Shown piece after piece: positions 6,734 through 45,831 of a DNA stretch of 64,000 nucleotides. The translations under genes were made by a program, and so were the position numbers. The DNA is taken from assembly GCA_000092065.1 (NCBI GenBank), contig CP000583.1; one strand, written 5' to 3'. Source of the DNA: Ostreococcus lucimarinus (Eukaryota). Numbering within the stretch: the first letter of the stretch is position 1; the number at the start of each line of letters is the position of its first letter. The notes beneath the pieces were generated by a model, which saw nothing but the letters and a program-made list of their open reading frames with translations, was not told where the DNA came from and searched no databases.

Positions 6734-8116
6734 ATGTCGCGCGCGGACGCTCGAAACGCGTACGACGCCATCCTCGACGCGCGCACGCGCGACGCGGCGT
6801 CGATGGAGCGGTTCGCCGCGCTCGCGACGGCGCCGAGCGCGGTGCCGCGCGCCGCCGTCGAAGCGGTCGTCGACGCGGGCGCGCGCGCGGCGCTCGTCGA
6901 CGTGCGCTCGCCGGGAGAGCACGCGCGAGGACGCGCGCCGCGCGCGATAAACGCGCCGCTGTTCGATGACGACGAACGCGCGGCGGTGGGGACGGCGTAC
7001 AAGACGAGAGGACGAGGCGAGGCGCTGGTGCTGGGGATGGCGGCGGCGGCGCCGCGGTTGGAGGCGATCGTGGAGCGCGCGAAGCGAGCGGTGGAGACGG
7101 TGGCGACGACGCGAGGGAACGGTGACGGCGAAGACGATGGTGAGATTGATGTGTACGTGATGTGCTTTCGAGGAGGGATGCGGAGCTCGTGCGTGGGGTG
7201 GTTGTTGAAGGAACGGTTGCGCGGCGCGAGAGTCCACGTGGTCGAGGGCGGATACAAGGCGTTTCGGAGGTGGGCGCTCGAGCGGTGCGGACCGACGCGC
7301 GGATTGCCCGCGCCGAGGGTGTGCGTCGTCGGTGGACGCACGGGGGTGGGGAAGACGCGCGCGCTGTTGGCGCTGCGCGCGAAAGGGGAACAGATTATCG
7401 ATTTAGAGGGGTTGGCGAACCACGCCGGGAGCGCGTTCGGGTGGGTCGGGCGAGAGCCGCAGCCGACTTCGGAGCACTACTCTAATTTAGTCGCCTGCGA
7501 GTGGCACGCGTTGGATGCGAGCAGATGGGTGTTCATCGAGGATGAGGGACCGCACGTCGGGCGGTGCTCGGTGGATCCGTTGTTGTTTGAGCGCATGCGA
7601 AACGCTCCTCTGGTGCTTCGCATGGTCGCCCCGCGCGAGGTGCGGTTGCACACTTTAGTGGAAGATTACGCGACGTCAGAGTTGCGTTCTCATCCGGAAT
7701 GGATGCCCACAATGCGTGAAAGCGTCGATAAGCTCGTCAAGCGGCTCGGTGGCGACCGCGTGCGCGACATTCGAGAAAAGCTCGAAGCCGGCGATTTCAC
7801 CGCCGTCGCCGAAGGTTTGCTCGAGTATTACGACGGTTTGTACGACAAGCACCTCATGAGCAAGCGCAAAGACCGTCGCGCGGCGCGGGCCGCCAACGCC
7901 AACGCCGCCAACGCCAACGCCAACGACGACGCGTGTTCGGTGCAATCCTTCACGTCGTCCACCACCGAAGACGAGGCCCGAGCCGGCGTCGTCGTCGACG
8001 TCAACTGCGTCGCCAACGCCTCGGGTGGCCTCGACGAGGACCTTCTCGTCCGCGATGTTCTGTGCGCCGTCGCTCTGTTCGAATGCGAAGGACCGAACGA
8101 CCCCGAACGCGCGTAG
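6734..8116 (+). CDS. selU: tRNA 2-selenouridine synthase (SelU/MnmH/YbbB family; rhodanese domain plus P-loop)
   Basis: [36 protein letters not shown] aligns with E. coli YbbB [36 protein letters not shown]. The rhodanese Cys loop is CFRGGMRSS. Walker A is [11 protein letters not shown], followed by [13 protein letters not shown]. The conserved [12 protein letters not shown] is present. There is a C-terminal extension of ~90 aa with (AN)n and a Cys-rich tail. Confidence 0.85.
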   Translation: [460 protein letters not shown]

Positions 8117-11110: not shown

Positions 11111-12247
11111 TCAACGAGGAATCTTCCTGCACTCGACCAATCGATCGCGGATGTCGTCCCAAAATGCTGCCTCCTCGGCGTCTGCGTCTGCGTCGACGCC
11201 GCGCTCGCGAATAAGCTCGAACCTACTGTCACGACGGTAAGCGACGGATGCGAACGTGATCGTTCGCGTTCGCACCTTCGTGCCTTCGCTTCTGTGGATG
11301 CTCTCCACGATGTCTGGGCGTACCCAATCCGCACCGAGACGCAGGACACCCTTGAATCGCGCGACGTCGACGCGTCGCAACACAAACTCTTCAAAAAACG
11401 CCTTCAACTTCGGTCGCACGAAGACGTCGTCGACGTGAAACGCGTATCCACACGAGGCGTATCGATCACTTTCCTGCTTCACCATCCAAGGCGGCGCGTT
11501 GGCGGTGAGGCGCGGCTCCAAAGTGAACGGTCTCGAGCTCGTCGTCGTCGTCGTCGTCGTCGTCGCCTCGGTCGGGAGCTCGCTCGGCTCCCACCCGCAT
11601 CGACCATCGAGAAGCGCCAAATCCATCCCATTCGCGCGATCACGCGCCAAAAACACAGCACTCTTCTTCGGCCAAAACCCACGCCCGAACGCCAAGAACG
11701 CCTCCACCTCTGCCTCGCTCGCGGCGTCCGCGAACGACCCGCACATCGCGTCTGCGCACTCCGTCTGCGCCTTGAACAATTCCGACCGCAACACCGCCGC
11801 TTTCCCTTCGTCTTCCCCGAAAACCCGCACATCGACCACACAAATCGTCGCTCGCACGTCCACGCTCGCTTCCAGGTGTTCCGATCGCAGCGCGTCGATC
11901 ACGCGTCCCGCGTCGCCCATCCCGCTCGGCTCCACGAGCACGCGCGCCGGTCGATACCGCCGCAGCACCTGCGTCACCGCCACCACGAACGGCGCCGCCG
12001 TCGCGCAGCACGCGCACCCTCCCGACACCTCTCGAACGATCGTCCTCCCACTCGCGTCCGCGTCGCGCTCGCGCGTTCCCACCGCGTCATCGAGCAGCGC
12101 CCCGTCGATGCCCAGCGCACCGAAATCGTTCACCACCACCGCCCACGTCTCGTTCGCCGGCTTCGCGCTCGCCAGCGCGCGCAGAACGTGCGTCGTCTTC
12201 CCCGCGCCGAGCGCGCCGGTGATGACGTTCACCGGCGTGCGCGCCAT
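11111..12247 (-). CDS. CobW/COG0523-family G3E GTPase (putative zinc metallochaperone)
   Basis: The P-loop is NVITGALGAGKTT. The metal-binding CxCC motif is SGGCACCAT. A CobW C-terminal domain is present. There is a poly-Thr linker (TTTTTTTT) from an (ACG)n repeat. Confidence 0.85.
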   Translation of the reverse strand: MARTPVNVITGALGAGKTTHVLRALASAKPANETWAVVVNDFGALGIDGALLDDAVGTRERDADASGRTIVREVSGGCACCATAAPFVVAVTQVLRRYRPARVLVEPSGMGDAGRVIDALRSEHLEASVDVRATICVVDVRVFGEDEGKAAVLRSELFKAQTECADAMCGSFADAASEAEVEAFLAFGRGFWPKKSAVFLARDRANGMDLALLDGRCGWEPSELPTEATTTTTTTTSSRPFTLEPRLTANAPPWMVKQESDRYASCGYAFHVDDVFVRPKLKAFFEEFVLRRVDVARFKGVLRLGADWVRPDIVESIHRSEGTKVRTRTITFASVAYRRDSRFELIRERGVDADADAEEAAFWDDIRDRLVECRKIPR

Positions 12248-40657: not shown

Positions 40658-41431
40658 TCACTGGAGTCCCATGTCGCGCTTCAACTCGGCGAGCATGTCG
40701 TCCACGGTTTGCGACGTGACGCTCGGCGCGGGCGACGGTTTCTTCGGTTTGGGTTTCGGCGGCGGCGCGGCGCGACTAAACTCCGTCTCCGACGTGGGCT
40801 TCGGTTTCGGCGCGGCGTCCTCGAGGAAATCCACGAACTCCTCGCCGATTTCGTAGAGCTCTTCCCAGAGGGATTTCGGGGCGGCGCCGGCGGGGCGCGC
40901 GGCGTCTCGCGCGGCGAGCTCCTTCTCCAAGTCGCGGAAAAAGTCGCCAAAACCATAAAATTCTTCCTCCTCTCGCGCGCCCGCCGCGCGCGCACCGGAC
41001 GACGACGGCGACGCGCGTGACGACGACGCGCGCGGTGCTCGAGCGCCGCTCGTCGCGCGCGTCCACGCATCGCTCCAATCCGTCGCCGTCGCGCGTCCCC
41101 GGGACGTCGCCGCCGCGTCGTACGCCTCCCGCCTCGCCGGGTCCACGAGCACGTTATACGCCTCTTTCACCTCGTTGAACCGCGCCGACGCGTCGGGCGC
41201 TTTGTTCACGTCCGGGTGCAGCTCGAGCGCGCGCCTGCGGTAGGCGGATTTGATCTCCTTCGTCGTCGCTTTCGGGGACACGCCCAGGAGATTGTACAGG
41301 TGCCGCGCCGAGTCACCGCCGCGTGACGTCGACGCGGCGGCGTGCGTGGCGCGACGCGCGCGTCGCGCGGTGACGCTCGCGCGTCTCGGCGCGACGTCGA
41401 GGGCGACGGCGCGAGCGCACGCGCGCGACAT
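40658..41431 (-). CDS. J-domain (DnaJ-like) protein with an organellar transit-like N-terminus and a Pro/Lys-rich C-terminal region
   Basis: The J domain is HLYNLLGVSPKATTKEIKSAYRRRALELHPDVNKAPDASARFNEVKEAYNVL, with the HPD motif. Confidence 0.8.
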   Translation of the reverse strand: MSRACARAVALDVAPRRASVTARRARRATHAAASTSRGGDSARHLYNLLGVSPKATTKEIKSAYRRRALELHPDVNKAPDASARFNEVKEAYNVLVDPARREAYDAAATSRGRATATDWSDAWTRATSGARAPRASSSRASPSSSGARAAGAREEEEFYGFGDFFRDLEKELAARDAARPAGAAPKSLWEELYEIGEEFVDFLEDAAPKPKPTSETEFSRAAPPPKPKPKKPSPAPSVTSQTVDDMLAELKRDMGLQ

Positions 41432-41517: not shown

Positions 41518-41889
41518 TTAGGCCGCCGGATCGCTCGCGCGAATGTCTCGCTCGGCGCTCGCGATGGCGTCGCGCAGCGCGCTCACGGGTGCCTTGGCGA
41601 ACAGACTCGCCGGGTACACCGCGCTGCCCCACGTCGGATGCAAAACCACCTTGCAGCACCCGCTGTTGGTGGTTTGATAATTCAAAAGCGTCACCAACGC
41701 GTCCACCTCGCCGTACACGTGTTGCGAATCGCGATTGATCATCGACAACCCGCTGCACGGATCGATGTAATCGCACCAATACCCACCCGCGCGAAGCGCG
41801 TCCGTCACGCGTTTCGCAAAGTCGACGAAGCGCTCGAGACAGAAATCCTTTTCGATGTCCACGTTTTCCCCGGTCTGCACCAAATCCAT
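41518..41889 (-). CDS. MMADHC: MMADHC (CblD)-like cobalamin-trafficking protein, C-terminal exon
   Basis: ...VDIEKDFCLERFVDFAKRVTDALRAGGYWCDYIDPCSGL...NSGCCKVVLHPTWGSAVYPASLFAKAP matches human MMADHC ...[38 protein letters not shown]...[25 protein letters not shown]. Confidence 0.7.
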   Translation of the reverse strand: MDLVQTGENVDIEKDFCLERFVDFAKRVTDALRAGGYWCDYIDPCSGLSMINRDSQHVYGEVDALVTLLNYQTTNSGCCKVVLHPTWGSAVYPASLFAKAPVSALRDAIASAERDIRASDPAA

Positions 41890-41979
41890 CTTCGTCCGCT
41901 ATCGATCGCGCGATTACCACGCGTGGTCCATCGTCAGTCGTCGTCGTCGCGCGCGTCGTCGTCGCGCGCGTCGTCGTTC
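41890..41979 (-). other. Intron of the MMADHC-like gene (90 nt, GTGCGCG...AAG)
   Basis: Splicing 41980 to 41889 joins ...FPGVDVGDMLVVPTRQ to MDLVQTGENVDIEKDF, parallel to human ...[32 protein letters not shown]. The donor is CAG|GTGCGCG. There is a CTGAC motif inside. Confidence 0.55.
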
Positions 41980-42301
41980 GCCCGCGCACCTGACGCGTCG
42001 GCACGACCAACATGTCCCCGACGTCCACCCCCGGGAACATCGCCTCCGCCTCCATCTTGTGCCGCTTCGGGCACGCTGCGTCGCGCGATCGCGCCGCGTT
42101 CGTCGTCGTCAGTCCGCGTCTCTCTCCCGTCTCTCTCGCGCGCGTCGTTCGCGTCGTTCGCGCGACCGTTTCGAGAATTCCACGCCGCGCGTTCGCGGCG
42201 CCTCGCGCGTCTTCCTCGCGCGTCGCGCGCGCACCGTGCGCGGAGTACTCCATGCCCCACACCGTCTTCGTCGTCTCGATCGCCGGCGGCGTCGCGCCCA
42301 T
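41980..42301 (-). CDS. MMADHC: MMADHC-like gene, upstream exon (start codon uncertain; candidates M1 at 42301, MEYSAHG, MEAEAM)
   Basis: The frame of ORF 41483..42301 encodes ...HKMEAEAMFPGVDVGDMLVVPTRQ before the frame is lost. Confidence 0.45.
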
Positions 42302-42327
42302 GTCTCGCGCCGTCGTCGCGTCGCGCG

Positions 42328-45300
42328 ATGGCGTCGTCGGCAGTGATGCGCGCGCGCAGTCTCGCGCGTCGCGCGCGAGTCGTCGCCGCGAGCGCGTGCG
42401 AAGCGGCGTCGCTCGCGTCTCGCGCGCGCGCGTCCGGCGCGTCGCGCGCGTCGCGCGTCGCGCGCGGCGGCGCGGCGACAGCTCGACGCGCGATGGCGAC
42501 GACGACGACGGCGACGACGACGGCGGCGCGCGCGCGCGCGACGCCGCGATGGCGATGCGCGACGACGACGGCGACGGCGAGACGCGCGATGCGCGCGATG
42601 CGCGCGGAGACGGACGAGACGACGGCGCGCGCGAGCGACGACGCGCGCGCGGTGTCGTATTGGCGAGAACAGATTCAAAACTACGACGCGAGCGCGAAGG
42701 CGTCGACGCGAGGGATGATCGCGAGACTCGATCGAGACGATCCGCTGGGCGTGGATCTGACGCTGCGAGGGGCGTCGACGCGGCATGGGGCGGGGAAACG
42801 GATGACGCTGTATGATTACGCGAGGACGGTGAAGGCGGCGCATCCGCGGAAAATATCGTTGATTCGAGTGGGAGATTTTTACGAGTGCTTGGGATACGAC
42901 GCGGTGATGCTGGTGATGCACGCGGGGTTGAATCCGATGGGGATTTCGGGGGTGCCCAAGGCGGGGTGCCCGGTGGTGAAGATTCAGGAGACGCTCGATC
43001 GGTTGACGTCGAGAGGGTACTCGTGCGTCGTTTGCGAAGAGGTGCCGCAGATGAATAGATACGGCCAACCGACGCCGCCTAAGGATCGGTACATCGCCGC
43101 GATCGTGACGCCGGCGTCGCCGAATTACGTCAAAGGCGCGGCATCGCAGGGCGAAGACGTCGATTTCGGGGATGGGAGCGCGCCACCGGTGATTGGGCTC
43201 GCGAGCAGCGCGCTCGGGTACACCGTAGTCACCGTCGAACCGGATCTGCGTCGAGTATCCGTCCTCGAGGGATTGACGGCGGAAGCCGCCGCGGCGAAGC
43301 TGTCGGCGGGCGGCATCGCGCCGCCGCTTTACAGGCACGCAAGTCTGGGAAGTGGTCACGCACAGAGCGGTCGGCACGCGGCCGGCACGAGCGCGCCGAG
43401 TCGGCGTTTACGCTGGGAGGTGCAATCGATTTTGAGCGCCGCCGAAGGCGTCGACGCGGTGAAATACAACGGCGACGTCGTGGAGAAGCTCCTAGATCTC
43501 GTGCGTTTGGATCACGGACTCGGGCCCGAAGATGCTTTCCATCGCGTGACTGTGCCTAACAAAGGCCGCCCAGCGCCGCTCTCACTCGCGACCGCGCAAC
43601 AGCTCGGAATCTTGCCGTCGCGATCCGTGCCTCCGCTCTTGACGCATCTGTTGCCCGAGAGGTCGGCACCGGCGGCGTGTCGCTCGTACTTACAAGAGCT
43701 ATTGCTTCATCCACCGCCACCTCAAACTGCGCTCGCGATTCAAGAGGCTTCGGTGCTTTTCACGAAGTCGACGTCGGCCATGCCGCAACTCGAAGTCCTG
43801 CCGCCGAGCAAAGTGGCGAAACTTTTGGCCCAACGCGAGGCGAGCCATACATTTTTCGCCGATCTCGCGTCCATGGCGCGCGGTGTCGAGGCACTGCTAA
43901 CGAACAGCAGCGCGGACATTCGTCGTGCCGGACATTTGTTGATCGATCCCACGTCTTTGAAGCTCGGCGCCAAGCTGAACGGCGACGCGCTCGCCAAGGT
44001 GTGCTCGGAGGCGAGCGCGATGATCGAAAACGTGGTGAGCGAAGACGTTCTGAATGGAATCGCAGTTGTTCGTCAGAAGAGCGATGAAGACGAAAGCGAC
44101 GACGAGGATGAGCGCGATGACGCATCTTTCGTCATGGACGGTTTAGATCAACCACTCAAGCTCCTCAACATACCGAACAGATTTATGTTTGAAAACGAGC
44201 GTTGGCGAGGCAGAGTTCGTCGCGAGCACATTCCCGAAGCGATCGATCGGGTTGAATCCGCCGCACGCGCGCTTGAAACGGCAGTGAACGAAGATTTCAT
44301 GCCAATCATCGAAAAAGCCGCGGCCGAAAAGAAGACAAAAGCGAGGAAATGTGAGTTGGAACACGACATGCGAAACAACGCGCTTTGGATGCGTCACGCT
44401 CCAAAAGATGCGATGAAAATGGACGATTTTATTCATCCGCGCGATAGATTCGGAAAAGAGGTCGCAGATAGATGGACGACGGCACGAGTCGAGCTTGCTT
44501 TGGACGATTACAGAGTTGCGACGCAAAAAGCCGCGGTCGCAGTCTCTGACACTCTCATCAACCTCGCCGACGATTTGCAGGAGCACATATCGTCGCTCGT
44601 GGGCGCGGCGACTCTTTCAACGGTGACGATTGCGATTCTCGCCCACGCAAGCAACGCCATCAACAAACGTTGGACGCCGCCAACGCTTCTTCCCGAAGGC
44701 GACACGGCGAGTCCGCTTGCGGTCGAGGGCTTGGTACCGTTTTGGATGCGACTTGATGGCGCGGAGACGGTGCCGAATAGCTTTGACATCGATGGTTTGG
44801 TTTTACTCACCGGTCCAAATATGGCGGGAAAGAGTACGGTTTTACGCTCAGTGGCCGCGCTAGCGCTTCTTGCGCAGTGTGGACTACACGCACCCGCGAT
44901 TTCCGCCCAAGTACCTCGCTTAGACTCGCTCATAGTTCGAATGGCGAGCACGGATTCCCCAGTCGAAGGTTTGAGCTCGTTTGCGGTTGAGATGCTCGAA
45001 ATTAAATCCATGCTTAGCTCTTGCACCGCTGGTAGTCTGATCATGGTTGACGAACTTGGTCGAGGCACGGAGGCTTCGCACGGCACTGCAATAGGCGGCG
45101 CAGTTGTCGAGGCGCTCGATGAGTGCGGCGCGCGTGGAATTTTCGCCACGCACCTGCACGGCATTCTGGATTTGCCGTTGCGCGTCTCGCCGTGGACGCG
45201 TCGAGCGCGCATGGAGACGGCAAAGTCGGATGATGGAAGCACGCGCCCGACGTGGAGAATGGTCCCAGGCGAATGCCGTGAGTCACTCGCGCTCCAAACC

Positions 45301-45831
45301 GCCCTTGATTGCGGTATTTCACACGCCATCGTCGCTCGAGCCAATGCATTGCTCGAGGAACAAACGAGCATCCCGCTCGTAAAGTTGAGCGACTCAGAGC
45401 AGGCGACGTTGATCGAGAAGCAAGACACCAGCCCGGAAAGACCGCGTGTCGATGGTGAATATTTGAAACTTCTCCTCGCTGAATCAACTGCGCGAGCGCT
45501 TCAACTTGAAAATGCGCAAGTGATTCACGTGGGTCCGAATCAAACGCCGCCGATTGGCTCCGCCGGACAAACGTGCGTGTACATTCTTCGCCGCGGAGAC
45601 GGCTGGTGCTATTGCGGCGAGAGCGACCATCTTCCTACGCGACTCGCGACGCATCGTCAAAGTTCCCAGCGTCTCATCGAGCTAGTGTACGTCGCGGTGC
45701 CGAAAGAAGCGGGAGGAAAGAGCGCCGCGCGCGCCCTCGAGAGCCGCGTCATCCAAGCGTTACAGCGAGCGCGCGTGCCGTTGTGGTCGGATCAAGACGC
45801 CGCACACAAACATTTTGGCGCCGCAGGGTGA
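42328..45831 (+). CDS. MSH1: Plant-type MutS homolog 1 (MSH1): MutS mismatch-binding and ATPase domains fused to a C-terminal GIY-YIG endonuclease domain; organellar presequence
   Basis: Domain I is ...MTLYDYARTVKAAHPRKISLIRVGDFYECLGYDAVM. The ABC ATPase is LLTGPNMAGKSTVLRSVAALALLAQCG...SLIMVDELGRGTEASHG...IFATHLHGI. The GIY-YIG is TCVYILRRGDGWCYCGESDHLPTRLATHRQ. The start was set at MASSAVMRARSLARRARVVAAS (ATG 42328), because the 5' part of ORF 41638.. overlaps the MMADHC gene. Confidence 0.8.
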   Translation: MASSAVMRARSLARRARVVAASACEAASLASRARASGASRASRVARGGAATARRAMATTTTATTTAARARATPRWRCATTTATARRAMRAMRAETDETTARASDDARAVSYWREQIQNYDASAKASTRGMIARLDRDDPLGVDLTLRGASTRHGAGKRMTLYDYARTVKAAHPRKISLIRVGDFYECLGYDAVMLVMHAGLNPMGISGVPKAGCPVVKIQETLDRLTSRGYSCVVCEEVPQMNRYGQPTPPKDRYIAAIVTPASPNYVKGAASQGEDVDFGDGSAPPVIGLASSALGYTVVTVEPDLRRVSVLEGLTAEAAAAKLSAGGIAPPLYRHASLGSGHAQSGRHAAGTSAPSRRLRWEVQSILSAAEGVDAVKYNGDVVEKLLDLVRLDHGLGPEDAFHRVTVPNKGRPAPLSLATAQQLGILPSRSVPPLLTHLLPERSAPAACRSYLQELLLHPPPPQTALAIQEASVLFTKSTSAMPQLEVLPPSKVAKLLAQREASHTFFADLASMARGVEALLTNSSADIRRAGHLLIDPTSLKLGAKLNGDALAKVCSEASAMIENVVSEDVLNGIAVVRQKSDEDESDDEDERDDASFVMDGLDQPLKLLNIPNRFMFENERWRGRVRREHIPEAIDRVESAARALETAVNEDFMPIIEKAAAEKKTKARKCELEHDMRNNALWMRHAPKDAMKMDDFIHPRDRFGKEVADRWTTARVELALDDYRVATQKAAVAVSDTLINLADDLQEHISSLVGAATLSTVTIAILAHASNAINKRWTPPTLLPEGDTASPLAVEGLVPFWMRLDGAETVPNSFDIDGLVLLTGPNMAGKSTVLRSVAALALLAQCGLHAPAISAQVPRLDSLIVRMASTDSPVEGLSSFAVEMLEIKSMLSSCTAGSLIMVDELGRGTEASHGTAIGGAVVEALDECGARGIFATHLHGILDLPLRVSPWTRRARMETAKSDDGSTRPTWRMVPGECRESLALQTALDCGISHAIVARANALLEEQTSIPLVKLSDSEQATLIEKQDTSPERPRVDGEYLKLLLAESTARALQLENAQVIHVGPNQTPPIGSAGQTCVYILRRGDGWCYCGESDHLPTRLATHRQSSQRLIELVYVAVPKEAGGKSAARALESRVIQALQRARVPLWSDQDAAHKHFGAAG

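What the first reader, a model, noticed from the sequence alone, without database searches (positions are those of the whole stretch)
41518..42330. MMADHC (CblD)-like vitamin-B12 trafficking gene, two exons, head-to-head with MSH1 within ~30 bp
The match to the conserved C-terminal domain of human MMADHC is clear ([13 protein letters not shown] / GCCKV..H..WG), and the upstream exon continues the alignment. A dedicated cobalamin chaperone in a picoalga fits a B12-dependent (METH-type) metabolism. The longest upstream ATG (42301) lies only 26 bp from the MSH1 ATG (42328) on the opposite strand. Either the 5'UTRs overlap, or a downstream start (MEYSAHG or MEAEAM) is used.
Basis: partly seen in the sequence, partly recalled or inferred. 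Interest (0 to 1): 0.55.

Follow-up and report, generated by a model that had tools for sequence, protein, structure and literature searches.

The report
Ordinary three-exon algal B12 chaperone gene
This is the Ostreococcus copy of the vitamin-B12 chaperone gene MMADHC (CblD), a known gene that is already annotated in the sister species O. tauri; it has three exons rather than two and sits back-to-back with a MutS/MSH1-type repair gene.

Summary
The MMADHC/CblD call is correct, but the gene model is not.

- **Gene model.** The gene on the minus strand has three exons: 42301..42235, 42075..41990 and 41898..41518. It has two GT-AG introns, 42234..42076 and 41989..41899.
- **Family.** The 177-aa product scores 108 bits on PF10229 (cutoff 27). 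It aligns without a gap to human CblD residues 146-284. Its predicted structure matches only CblD crystal structures. It keeps the cobalt-binding vicinal cysteines (C132/C133, human C261/C262).
- **Relatives.** It is 81% identical to the annotated O. tauri MMADHC, which has introns at the same positions. The window is O. lucimarinus or a near-identical strain.
- **B12 context.** The literature lists O. lucimarinus with METH only, no METE and no methylmalonyl-CoA mutase. CblD has already been surveyed across algae.
- **Start codon.** ATG 42301 is supported, because residues upstream of the alternative Met17 are conserved across green algae.
- **Head-to-head arrangement.** The 26-bp gap to the first MSH1 ATG (42328) is real. 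Equivalent gaps are 21-66 bp in two other Ostreococcus lineages. The true MSH1 start and the 5' ends of both transcripts are unproven.

Verdict: a known gene in a compact genome, of low interest.

The parts
42235..42301 (-). MMADHC/CblD exon 1 (ATG at 42301; codes M1..H22 plus the first base of codon 23)
   Evidence: It starts at the first in-frame ATG after a stop. It ends at a GTGCGC donor. Residues TTxVWGMEYSxH are conserved in O. tauri and other green algae. The ATG context is GACATGG.
42076..42234 (-). Intron 1 (159 nt, phase 1, GTGCGC...ACTGAC...CAG; in frame and stop-free by coincidence)
   Evidence: Removing it gives an ungapped alignment to human CblD 146-284 and raises the Pfam score from 101.8 to 108 bits. 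O. tauri has an intron at the same position and phase, 119 nt long, and reading through it shifts the frame. ACTGAC lies 33 nt before the acceptor, and this motif occurs only 19 times in 128 kb.
41990..42075 (-). MMADHC/CblD exon 2 (86 nt; ACPKRHKMEAEAMFPGVDVGDMLVVPTRQ)
   Evidence: The O. tauri exon has the same length (86 nt) and is 81% identical, against 63-68% for the introns. It aligns to human residues 152-180.
41899..41989 (-). Intron 2 (91 nt, phase 0, GTGCGC...ACTGAC...TAG)
   Evidence: The GT and AG ends are at these coordinates. Splicing restores the frame. Introns occupy the same position in O. tauri (83 nt) and L013, and in P0003, P0005 and P0128, where gene callers read through it.
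41518..41898 (-). MMADHC/CblD exon 3 (381 nt including stop TAA 41520..41518; holds GYWCDYIDPCSGL and the vicinal cysteines C132/C133)
   Evidence: Its ORF alone scores 77.7 bits on PF10229. The O. tauri exon is also 381 nt. The exact 123-aa ORF occurs in 1134 blocks of marine metagenome assemblies.
42302..42327 (.). 26-bp spacer between the divergent ATGs of MMADHC and the MutS/MSH1-type gene
   Evidence: Read directly from the sequence. It is identical in 10 environmental loci of the same species. The equivalent spacing to the first in-frame ATG is 66 bp in O. tauri and 21 or 54 bp in L013.
42328..45831 (+). Divergent neighbour: MutS/MSH1-type gene (1167 aa if the first ATG is used)
   Evidence: MutS_I (E 7e-10) and MutS_V (E 1e-39) are present. 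The C-terminus gives a sub-threshold GIY-YIG match (E 6e-4, 20.5 bits against a cutoff of 22.6). The N-terminal 87 aa hold 18 R+K and 1 D+E, which looks like a transit peptide. The start codon has not been shown.

Best explanation
The locus is the Ostreococcus (O. lucimarinus-type) orthologue of MMADHC/CblD, a small cytosolic cobalamin-trafficking chaperone.

Shown here:
- A three-exon, 177-aa gene under purifying selection.
- The product corresponds to human CblD from about residue 130 to the C-terminus. This is the nitroreductase-like core, without the animal mitochondrial leader and disordered N-terminal region.
- It keeps the beta-hairpin with the vicinal cysteines.

Inferred from the human system:
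- Cys132 (human Cys261) ligates the cobalt of cob(II)alamin held by the partner CblC/MMACHC through a Co-S bond.
- The complex hands the cofactor to methionine synthase (METH).
- The neighbouring Cys133 (human Cys262) resolves the Co-S bond.
- Ostreococcus is listed with METH as its only B12 enzyme, so the protein would serve only the methylcobalamin branch.

The gene is transcribed divergently from a MutS/MSH1-type gene, across a very short shared upstream region that is conserved in at least three Ostreococcus lineages.
For: Family:
- PF10229 at 108 bits, cutoff 27.
- Ungapped 139-residue alignment to human CblD 146-284, E 2e-28.
- The AF2 model (pLDDT 79.5) matches only CblD structures: the top 8 hits have E 4e-10 to 3e-9 and the next hit has E about 0.1.

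Orthology and gene model:
- 81% identity over 97% of the length to the annotated O. tauri MMADHC (174 aa), with the same N-terminus.
- The same MutS, MMADHC, DnaJ, VPS13 gene order.
- Introns at identical positions and phases, with shared GTGCG and ACTGAC signals.
- L012 carries an uninterrupted 173-aa ORF with the same junction residues.

Selection: dN 0.143 and dS 0.67 against O. tauri.

Mechanism residues: C261/C262 map to C132/C133, which are invariant in 12 green-lineage sequences. E244 maps to E115, R197 to K68, E194 to D65 and D246 to D117. Their roles are taken from PMC12501144.

Pathway context: O. lucimarinus has MetH and lacks MetE and MmcM (PMC3476827). CblC, CblD and MTRR have been surveyed across Viridiplantae (10.1101/2023.06.07.544158).
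Against: - No transcript of this exact species was found. The exact 177-aa protein is not in the 15-billion-sequence collection, and neither spliced junction occurs in the JGI metagenome contigs. Splicing therefore rests on comparative evidence.
- The partner CblC and the enzymes METH and MTRR are not in this window. I did not check them in this genome with these tools.
- No biochemical work on any algal CblD was found in the searches run.
- The window has Arg50 where all 11 other aligned green-lineage CblD sequences have Cys. The significance is unknown.
Confidence: 0.9

Rival explanations
1. The two-exon model is right: only intron 2 is removed and 42234..42076 is coding. This gives a 230-aa protein with a 53-residue Arg/Thr/Ala-rich insert.
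For: The 159-nt segment is in frame and has no stop codon, and the 230-aa product still scores 101.8 bits on PF10229.
Against: - The insert interrupts an otherwise ungapped alignment to human CblD and to all green-algal homologues.
- The segment has a GTGCGC donor, an ACTGAC motif 33 nt before a CAG acceptor, and 72% GC, like intron 2.
- In O. tauri the equivalent segment is 119 nt, and reading through it shifts the frame.
- L015 and P0005 lack this intron and code the junction contiguously.
Confidence: 0.05
2. Translation of MMADHC starts at a downstream Met (M17 'MEYSAH' or M30 'MEAEAM'). This would relieve the crowding with MSH1.
For: Both are in-frame ATGs. Starting at M17 would widen the inter-ATG gap to 74 bp.
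Against: - The residues before M17 (T-T-x-W-G) are conserved across chlorophytes and streptophyte algae. All aligned homologues, including the annotated O. tauri protein, start 12-20 residues (Bathycoccus 37) before the conserved G-M/L-E-Y motif.
- The AF2 model places a beta-strand at residues 8-12, and residues 11-20 have a mean pLDDT of 92.
- ATG 42301 has A at -3 and G at +4.
- A start at M30 would remove the invariant E18, S20, H22 and P25.
Confidence: 0.07
3. The 26-bp head-to-head spacing is only apparent. MSH1 initiates at a downstream ATG (M56 at 42493, or M88 at 42589), so the two coding regions are 190-290 bp apart, with an ordinary divergent promoter and 5' UTRs between them.
For: - The O. 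tauri annotation starts MSH1 348 bp from the MMADHC ATG.
- Prokaryote-style gene callers pick M88 in the metagenome contigs.
- The N-terminal 100 aa is low-complexity and not alignable between species.
- In this GC-rich genome long stop-free stretches arise by chance: the same frame stays open back to 41638.
Against: - A start at M88 leaves only about 20 residues before the conserved 'YWREQIQ' block. Relatives carry N-terminal extensions of 100-150 aa rich in Arg, Ala and Ser (P0151, P0155).
- The first 87 aa have 18 R+K and 1 D+E, as expected of an organellar transit peptide.
- From the first ATG, the extension is about the same length in the window and in O. tauri, roughly 106-107 aa.
- The first ATG has G at -3 and G at +4.
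- In L013 the caller chose a 1161-aa product that starts 54 bp from the MMADHC ATG.
Confidence: 0.4
4. The gene is a decaying relic or pseudogene with no role in B12 handling.
For: No expression evidence was found for this species. Arg replaces a Cys that is conserved in all 11 other aligned green-lineage sequences.
Against: - The spliced ORF is intact, and dN/dS against O. tauri is about 0.2.
- Exon 2 and exon 3 lengths are conserved while intron lengths vary.
- The catalytic cysteines and interface residues are conserved.
- The sequence is essentially invariant in 10 environmental populations.
Confidence: 0.02

Closest known systems
[quoted passage not shown]
   Same: 81% identical over 97% of the length. 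It has the same N-terminus, the same three-exon structure with introns at identical positions and phases, and the same neighbours MutS/MSH1, DnaJ and VPS13.
   Different: Exon 1 is 9 nt longer in the window. The introns are 159 and 91 nt against 119 and 83 nt. The window has Arg50 instead of Cys50. The spacing to the first MSH1 ATG is 26 bp against 66 bp.
Human MMADHC / CblD (PDB 5CV0, 6X8Z, 9MRS)
   Same: The core domain aligns without gaps (human 146-284), and the predicted fold matches. The vicinal Cys261/Cys262 hairpin is conserved, and Glu244, Arg197 (Lys here) and Glu194 (Asp here) are conserved or conservatively replaced (PMC12501144).
   Different: The algal protein lacks the first ~129 residues of the human one: the mitochondrial leader, the alternative start sites and the disordered region 1-115. 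Pfam profile positions 1-122 are unmatched. Ostreococcus has no methylmalonyl-CoA mutase to serve. Human disease residues Y249 and L259 are not conserved (V120 and S130).
Short (~165-190 aa) CblD of other green algae and streptophyte algae (Chlorella variabilis, Chlamydomonas spp., Klebsormidium, Bathycoccus and others)
   Same: The same length class and N-terminal motif, with 45 invariant columns including GCCK and DPxSG. CblD distribution in these groups is already described (10.1101/2023.06.07.544158).
   Different: There is nothing notable beyond lineage-specific substitutions. Chlorella NC64A has an MCM yet also has a short CblD, so shortness is not tied to loss of MCM.

Membership tests
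MMADHC / CblD (Pfam PF10229) | Sequence match to the family HMM above the curated gathering score | tested here: met
   108 bits, E 9e-31, against a cutoff of 27 bits. The match covers profile positions 123-264 of 272.
MMADHC / CblD (Pfam PF10229) | Nitroreductase-like CblD core fold, as in 5CV0 and 5A4R | tested here: met
   AF2 model with pLDDT 79.5 and pTM 0.77. The top 8 Foldseek PDB hits are all CblD (E 4e-10 to 3e-9, target-normalised TM-score 0.67-0.74), followed by a gap to E about 0.1. This is a predicted structure, not an experimental one.
MMADHC / CblD (Pfam PF10229) | Beta-hairpin carrying the vicinal cysteines (human Cys261 cobalt ligand, Cys262 resolving thiol) | tested here: met
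   G131-C132-C133-K134 are invariant in 12 green-lineage sequences. The offset-129 mapping comes from the ungapped alignment. The model has strands 126-130 and 133-138 flanking the pair. Roles are taken from PMC12501144.
MMADHC / CblD (Pfam PF10229) | CblC-interface residues (human Met186, Glu194, Arg197, Glu244) | tested here: met
   They map to L57, D65, K68 and E115, which are identical or conservative. K68 and E115 are invariant in the alignment. The cited paper shows that single mutants at these sites barely affect binding, so the test is weak.
MMADHC / CblD (Pfam PF10229) | Forms a Co-S thiolato-cobalamin complex with CblC/MMACHC and supports loading of methionine synthase | not testable with these tools
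   This needs biochemistry or genetics. Whether this genome has a CblC gene was not checked here. There is none in the 64-kb window.
Animal-type dual-localised MMADHC (full-length, 296 aa) | N-terminal mitochondrial leader plus a ~115-residue disordered region, needed for the adenosylcobalamin (mitochondrial) branch | tested here: not met
   The protein begins at the equivalent of human residue ~130, and no start codon (ATG, GTG or TTG) lies between the upstream in-frame stop and ATG 42301. All green-lineage homologues aligned are 165-187 aa, or 181 at most apart from Bathycoccus. This feature belongs to the animal proteins and does not define the family core. The crystallised and biochemically active human constructs lack residues 1-115 (PMC12501144).
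Plant-type MSH1 (the divergent neighbour) | MutS domains I and V plus a C-terminal GIY-YIG endonuclease domain | tested here: inconclusive
   MutS_I at 39.5 bits and MutS_V at 136.8 bits pass their cutoffs. GIY-YIG scores 20.5 bits against a cutoff of 22.6, E 6e-4, so it is just below threshold.
Plant-type MSH1 (the divergent neighbour) | Organellar (mitochondrial or plastid) targeting peptide | not testable with these tools
   Only composition could be examined: 18 R+K and 1 D+E in the first 87 aa. No targeting predictor is available, and the start codon is unproven.

The most novel reading that the evidence does not exclude
Both first ATGs (42301 and 42328) are the true initiation codons. 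MMADHC and MSH1 would then be driven from a shared divergent core region of only 21-66 bp, conserved in at least three Ostreococcus lineages. That would force either near-leaderless mRNAs (5' UTRs under about 25 nt) or mRNAs whose 5' ends overlap each other's start codons. This would be a minimal natural bidirectional promoter in a eukaryote.
Probability: 0.4. Interest if true: 0.3.

Novelty: already known. Interest (0 to 1): 0.12.

Why it matters
It matters little beyond annotation.

- **Corrected model.** The work gives a three-exon model of a B12-trafficking gene in one of the most abundant marine picoalgae. The full-length protein appears to be missing from public protein sets for this species. 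Metagenome gene callers report only the 123-aa last exon.
- **Context.** The gene fits the established picture of Ostreococcus as a METH-only B12 auxotroph that needs the CblC/CblD/MTRR handling machinery.
- **Possible use.** The green-algal CblD is a natural 'core-only' version of the human protein. O. tauri is genetically tractable, which could make it a convenient system for studying the Co-S hand-off to methionine synthase.
- **Promoter region.** The very tight divergent arrangement with MSH1 illustrates genome compaction. It could serve as a compact bidirectional promoter if transcript mapping confirms it.

Tried and rejected
I spliced 41890..41979 literally. The CDS comes out frameshifted and there are no GT/AG ends, so I rejected it.
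- **Transcript evidence for this species.**
  - An exact look-up of the 177-aa product and of its V10 variant found neither in the collection.
  - Exact searches for both spliced junctions in the JGI metagenome contigs found nothing. These are probably DNA assemblies, so the result is a null, not evidence against splicing.
- **Population polymorphism as a test of exons against introns.** The 10 environmental loci are nearly identical to the window, with 11-18 differences per 10.4 kb, so the test has no power. The apparent 44-bp indel in L005 is a run of N.
- **MSH1 N-terminus by homology search.** The search was swamped by low-complexity words and returned only fragments. It gave weak support only.
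- **O. lucimarinus CCE9901 annotation through its DnaJ fragment.** The protein is not on record.
- **Supplementary tables of the algal B12 survey.** No Ostreococcus rows are held as text.
- **'A short CblD reflects loss of MCM'.** I rejected this because Chlorella NC64A has MCM and also has a 171-aa CblD.
- **The long plus-strand ORF 41638..45831.** Its upstream part is only the MSH1 frame staying open, antisense through MMADHC, in GC-rich DNA. There is no in-frame ATG between 41638 and 42328.
Full report
**What is in the sequence**

On the minus strand, an ORF of 123 aa (41889..41518, stop TAA at 41520..41518) encodes GYWCDYIDPCSGL and GCCKVVLHPTWG. A second frame is open from ATG 42301. On the plus strand an ATG at 42328 opens a 1167-aa ORF with MutS domains I and V. 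Its C-terminus gives a just-sub-threshold GIY-YIG match (E 6e-4). That combination is what a plant-type MSH1 would show. Exactly 26 bp (42302..42327) separate the two ATGs.

**Gene model**

GTGCG donors lie at 42234 and 41989, and acceptors end at 42076 (CAG) and 41899 (TAG). The resulting model is:

| Part | Coordinates (minus strand) | Length |
|---|---|---|
| Exon 1 | 42301..42235 | 67 nt |
| Intron 1 | 42234..42076 | 159 nt |
| Exon 2 | 42075..41990 | 86 nt |
| Intron 2 | 41989..41899 | 91 nt |
| Exon 3 | 41898..41518 | 381 nt |

This gives a 534-nt CDS and a 177-aa protein. Intron 1 happens to be in frame and free of stops, which explains why it was read as coding.

Five lines of evidence show that it is an intron:
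- Removing it makes the alignment to human CblD ungapped (query 17-155 against human 146-284, E 2e-28). It also raises the Pfam score from 101.8 to 108 bits.
- The annotated O. tauri orthologue has introns at exactly the same two positions and phases. Its intron 1 is 119 nt, so reading through it shifts the frame. Splicing the O. tauri DNA at those sites gives a 174-aa product that agrees with the annotated protein.
- All four introns start with GTGCG and carry ACTGAC 28-35 nt before the acceptor. This motif occurs only 19 times on both strands of the 64-kb window.
- Exons 2 and 3 have identical lengths in the two species and are 81-82% identical. The introns differ in length and are 63-68% identical.
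- A relative (L015/P0005) codes the exon 1-exon 2 junction contiguously in genomic DNA. L012 (P0002, 82% identical) carries an uninterrupted 173-aa ORF with the same junction residues and only 12 nt upstream of its ATG. L012 is most simply read as cDNA-derived, but that is not proven.

No transcript of the window's own species could be found.

**Start codon**

ATG 42301 is the first start codon after an in-frame stop. It has A at -3 and G at +4. The residues between it and Met17 (T-T-x-V-W-G) are conserved in O. tauri and across chlorophyte and streptophyte algae. The proteins of those algae all begin in the same way. The AF2 model places a confident beta-strand at residues 8-12.

**Family and mechanism**

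- PF10229 is matched at 108 bits against a cutoff of 27.
- The AF2 model (pLDDT 79.5) finds only CblD crystal structures at significant E-values.
- With the ungapped offset of 129, human Cys261 and Cys262 map to C132 and C133. Both are invariant in the 12-sequence alignment and lie in a predicted hairpin. Glu244, Arg197, Glu194 and Asp246 map to E115, K68, D65 and D117.
- In the human system Cys261 ligates the cobalt of CblC-bound cobalamin. Cys262 is proposed to resolve that Co-S bond when the cofactor is passed to methionine synthase. The active constructs lack residues 1-115 (PMC12501144).
- The algal protein corresponds to that core alone, starting at about human residue 130.
- dN/dS against O. 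tauri is about 0.2.

The mechanism in the alga is inferred by homology and has not been shown.

**Organism and pathway context**

The neighbouring DnaJ protein falls in a 90%-identity cluster with an O. lucimarinus CCE9901 fragment, to which it is identical over all 60 residues. The exon-3 ORF is present unchanged in 1134 blocks of marine metagenome assemblies, on contigs up to 966 kb. The window differs from ten such loci at only 11-18 positions per 10.4 kb.

The literature lists O. lucimarinus and O. tauri with MetH but without MetE or methylmalonyl-CoA mutase (PMC3476827 Table 1). It reports that METE is absent from Mamiellophyceae and that MCM is absent from chlorophytes apart from Tetraselmis and Chlorella. 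The short form is general in green algae, including Chlorella, which has MCM. Shortness is therefore not an adaptation to losing MCM. No other B12-pathway gene lies in the window.

**Head-to-head arrangement**

The MutS, MMADHC, DnaJ, VPS13 gene order is shared with O. tauri and with a third lineage, L013. It is not shared with L012 or L015, where an asparaginase gene follows MMADHC; in L015 no MutS gene precedes it.

The distance from the MMADHC ATG to the first in-frame ATG of the MutS gene is:

| Lineage | Distance |
|---|---|
| Window | 26 bp |
| O. tauri | 66 bp (the annotation uses an ATG 348 bp away, which leaves no transit peptide) |
| L013 | 21 or 54 bp |

The window's N-terminal 87 residues are rich in Arg, Ala, Ser and Thr and contain one acidic residue. 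Relatives carry extensions of 100-150 aa before the conserved block. This favours an upstream start but does not prove it. Whether the 5' UTRs overlap cannot be decided from sequence.

**Verdict**

The family assignment and the neighbourhood are confirmed, and the gene structure is corrected. The gene is a known orthologue in a compact genome, so novelty is 'already known' and interest is low. The only mildly novel possibility is an extremely short, conserved bidirectional promoter region.

Noticed in passing
window 41992..41994 (codon 50 of the spliced CDS, CGT): The window, and all 10 environmental loci of the same species, encode Arg50 in 'VVPTRQ'. All 11 other aligned green-lineage CblD sequences, including O. 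tauri, have Cys ('PTCQ'); P0128, another close Ostreococcus relative, also has Cys, and human has Thr. This is a lineage-specific change at a Cys conserved in green algae, one base away from TGT. Its significance is unknown.
   Followed up: partly
window 42273..42274 and 40715..40716: The window differs from all 10 metagenome-derived loci by two adjacent-dinucleotide changes. The first turns MMADHC codon 10 from GTG (Val, as in O. tauri) into ACG (Thr). The second lies in the DnaJ gene. Otherwise the strains are about 99.85% identical.
   Followed up: partly
L001 7652..7934 (O. tauri MSH1 5' end): The O. tauri annotation starts MSH1 at an ATG that leaves no N-terminal extension. The frame is open upstream, with in-frame ATGs at 7796, 7823, 7901 and 7934, the latter two giving transit-peptide-like sequence (e.g. 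MLRAIARRVGSGS... from 7901). The annotated protein (1077 aa) is probably truncated at its N-terminus.
   Followed up: partly
window 40658..41431 (-): A DnaJ-domain gene (257 aa, PF00226) starts only 86 bp after the MMADHC stop codon on the same strand. The 3' end of MMADHC and the promoter and 5' UTR of DnaJ must fit into or overlap that space. In O. tauri the gap is 111 bp.
   Followed up: no
window 41638..42327 (+): The MSH1 reading frame stays open for 690 nt upstream of its first plausible ATG, running antisense through the whole MMADHC gene. This is a stop-free artefact of 60-72% GC sequence and not a coding extension: there is no in-frame ATG between 41638 and 42328.
   Followed up: yes
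window 11111..12247 (-): This ORF is a CobW/HypB/UreG-family GTPase (PF02492, E 4.5e-32). The name suggests cobalamin, but the family consists of metallochaperone GTPases. No link to the B12 pathway was examined.
   Followed up: no
whole window, both strands: ACTGAC occurs only 19 times in 128 kb and marks the branch-site region of both MMADHC introns, and of both O. tauri introns. The other 17 occurrences might flag further introns in the window. This was not examined.
   Followed up: no
metagenome protein clusters P0006, P0121 and others; L002-L011: Prokaryote-style gene callers on marine metagenomes report only the 123-aa last exon of this gene (62-member cluster; the exact sequence is seen on 595 contigs). 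One NCBI entry for a related 134-aa fragment (P0026, 76% identical) is labelled 'Candidatus Dependentiae bacterium'. That is probably picoalgal DNA binned as bacterial.
   Followed up: no
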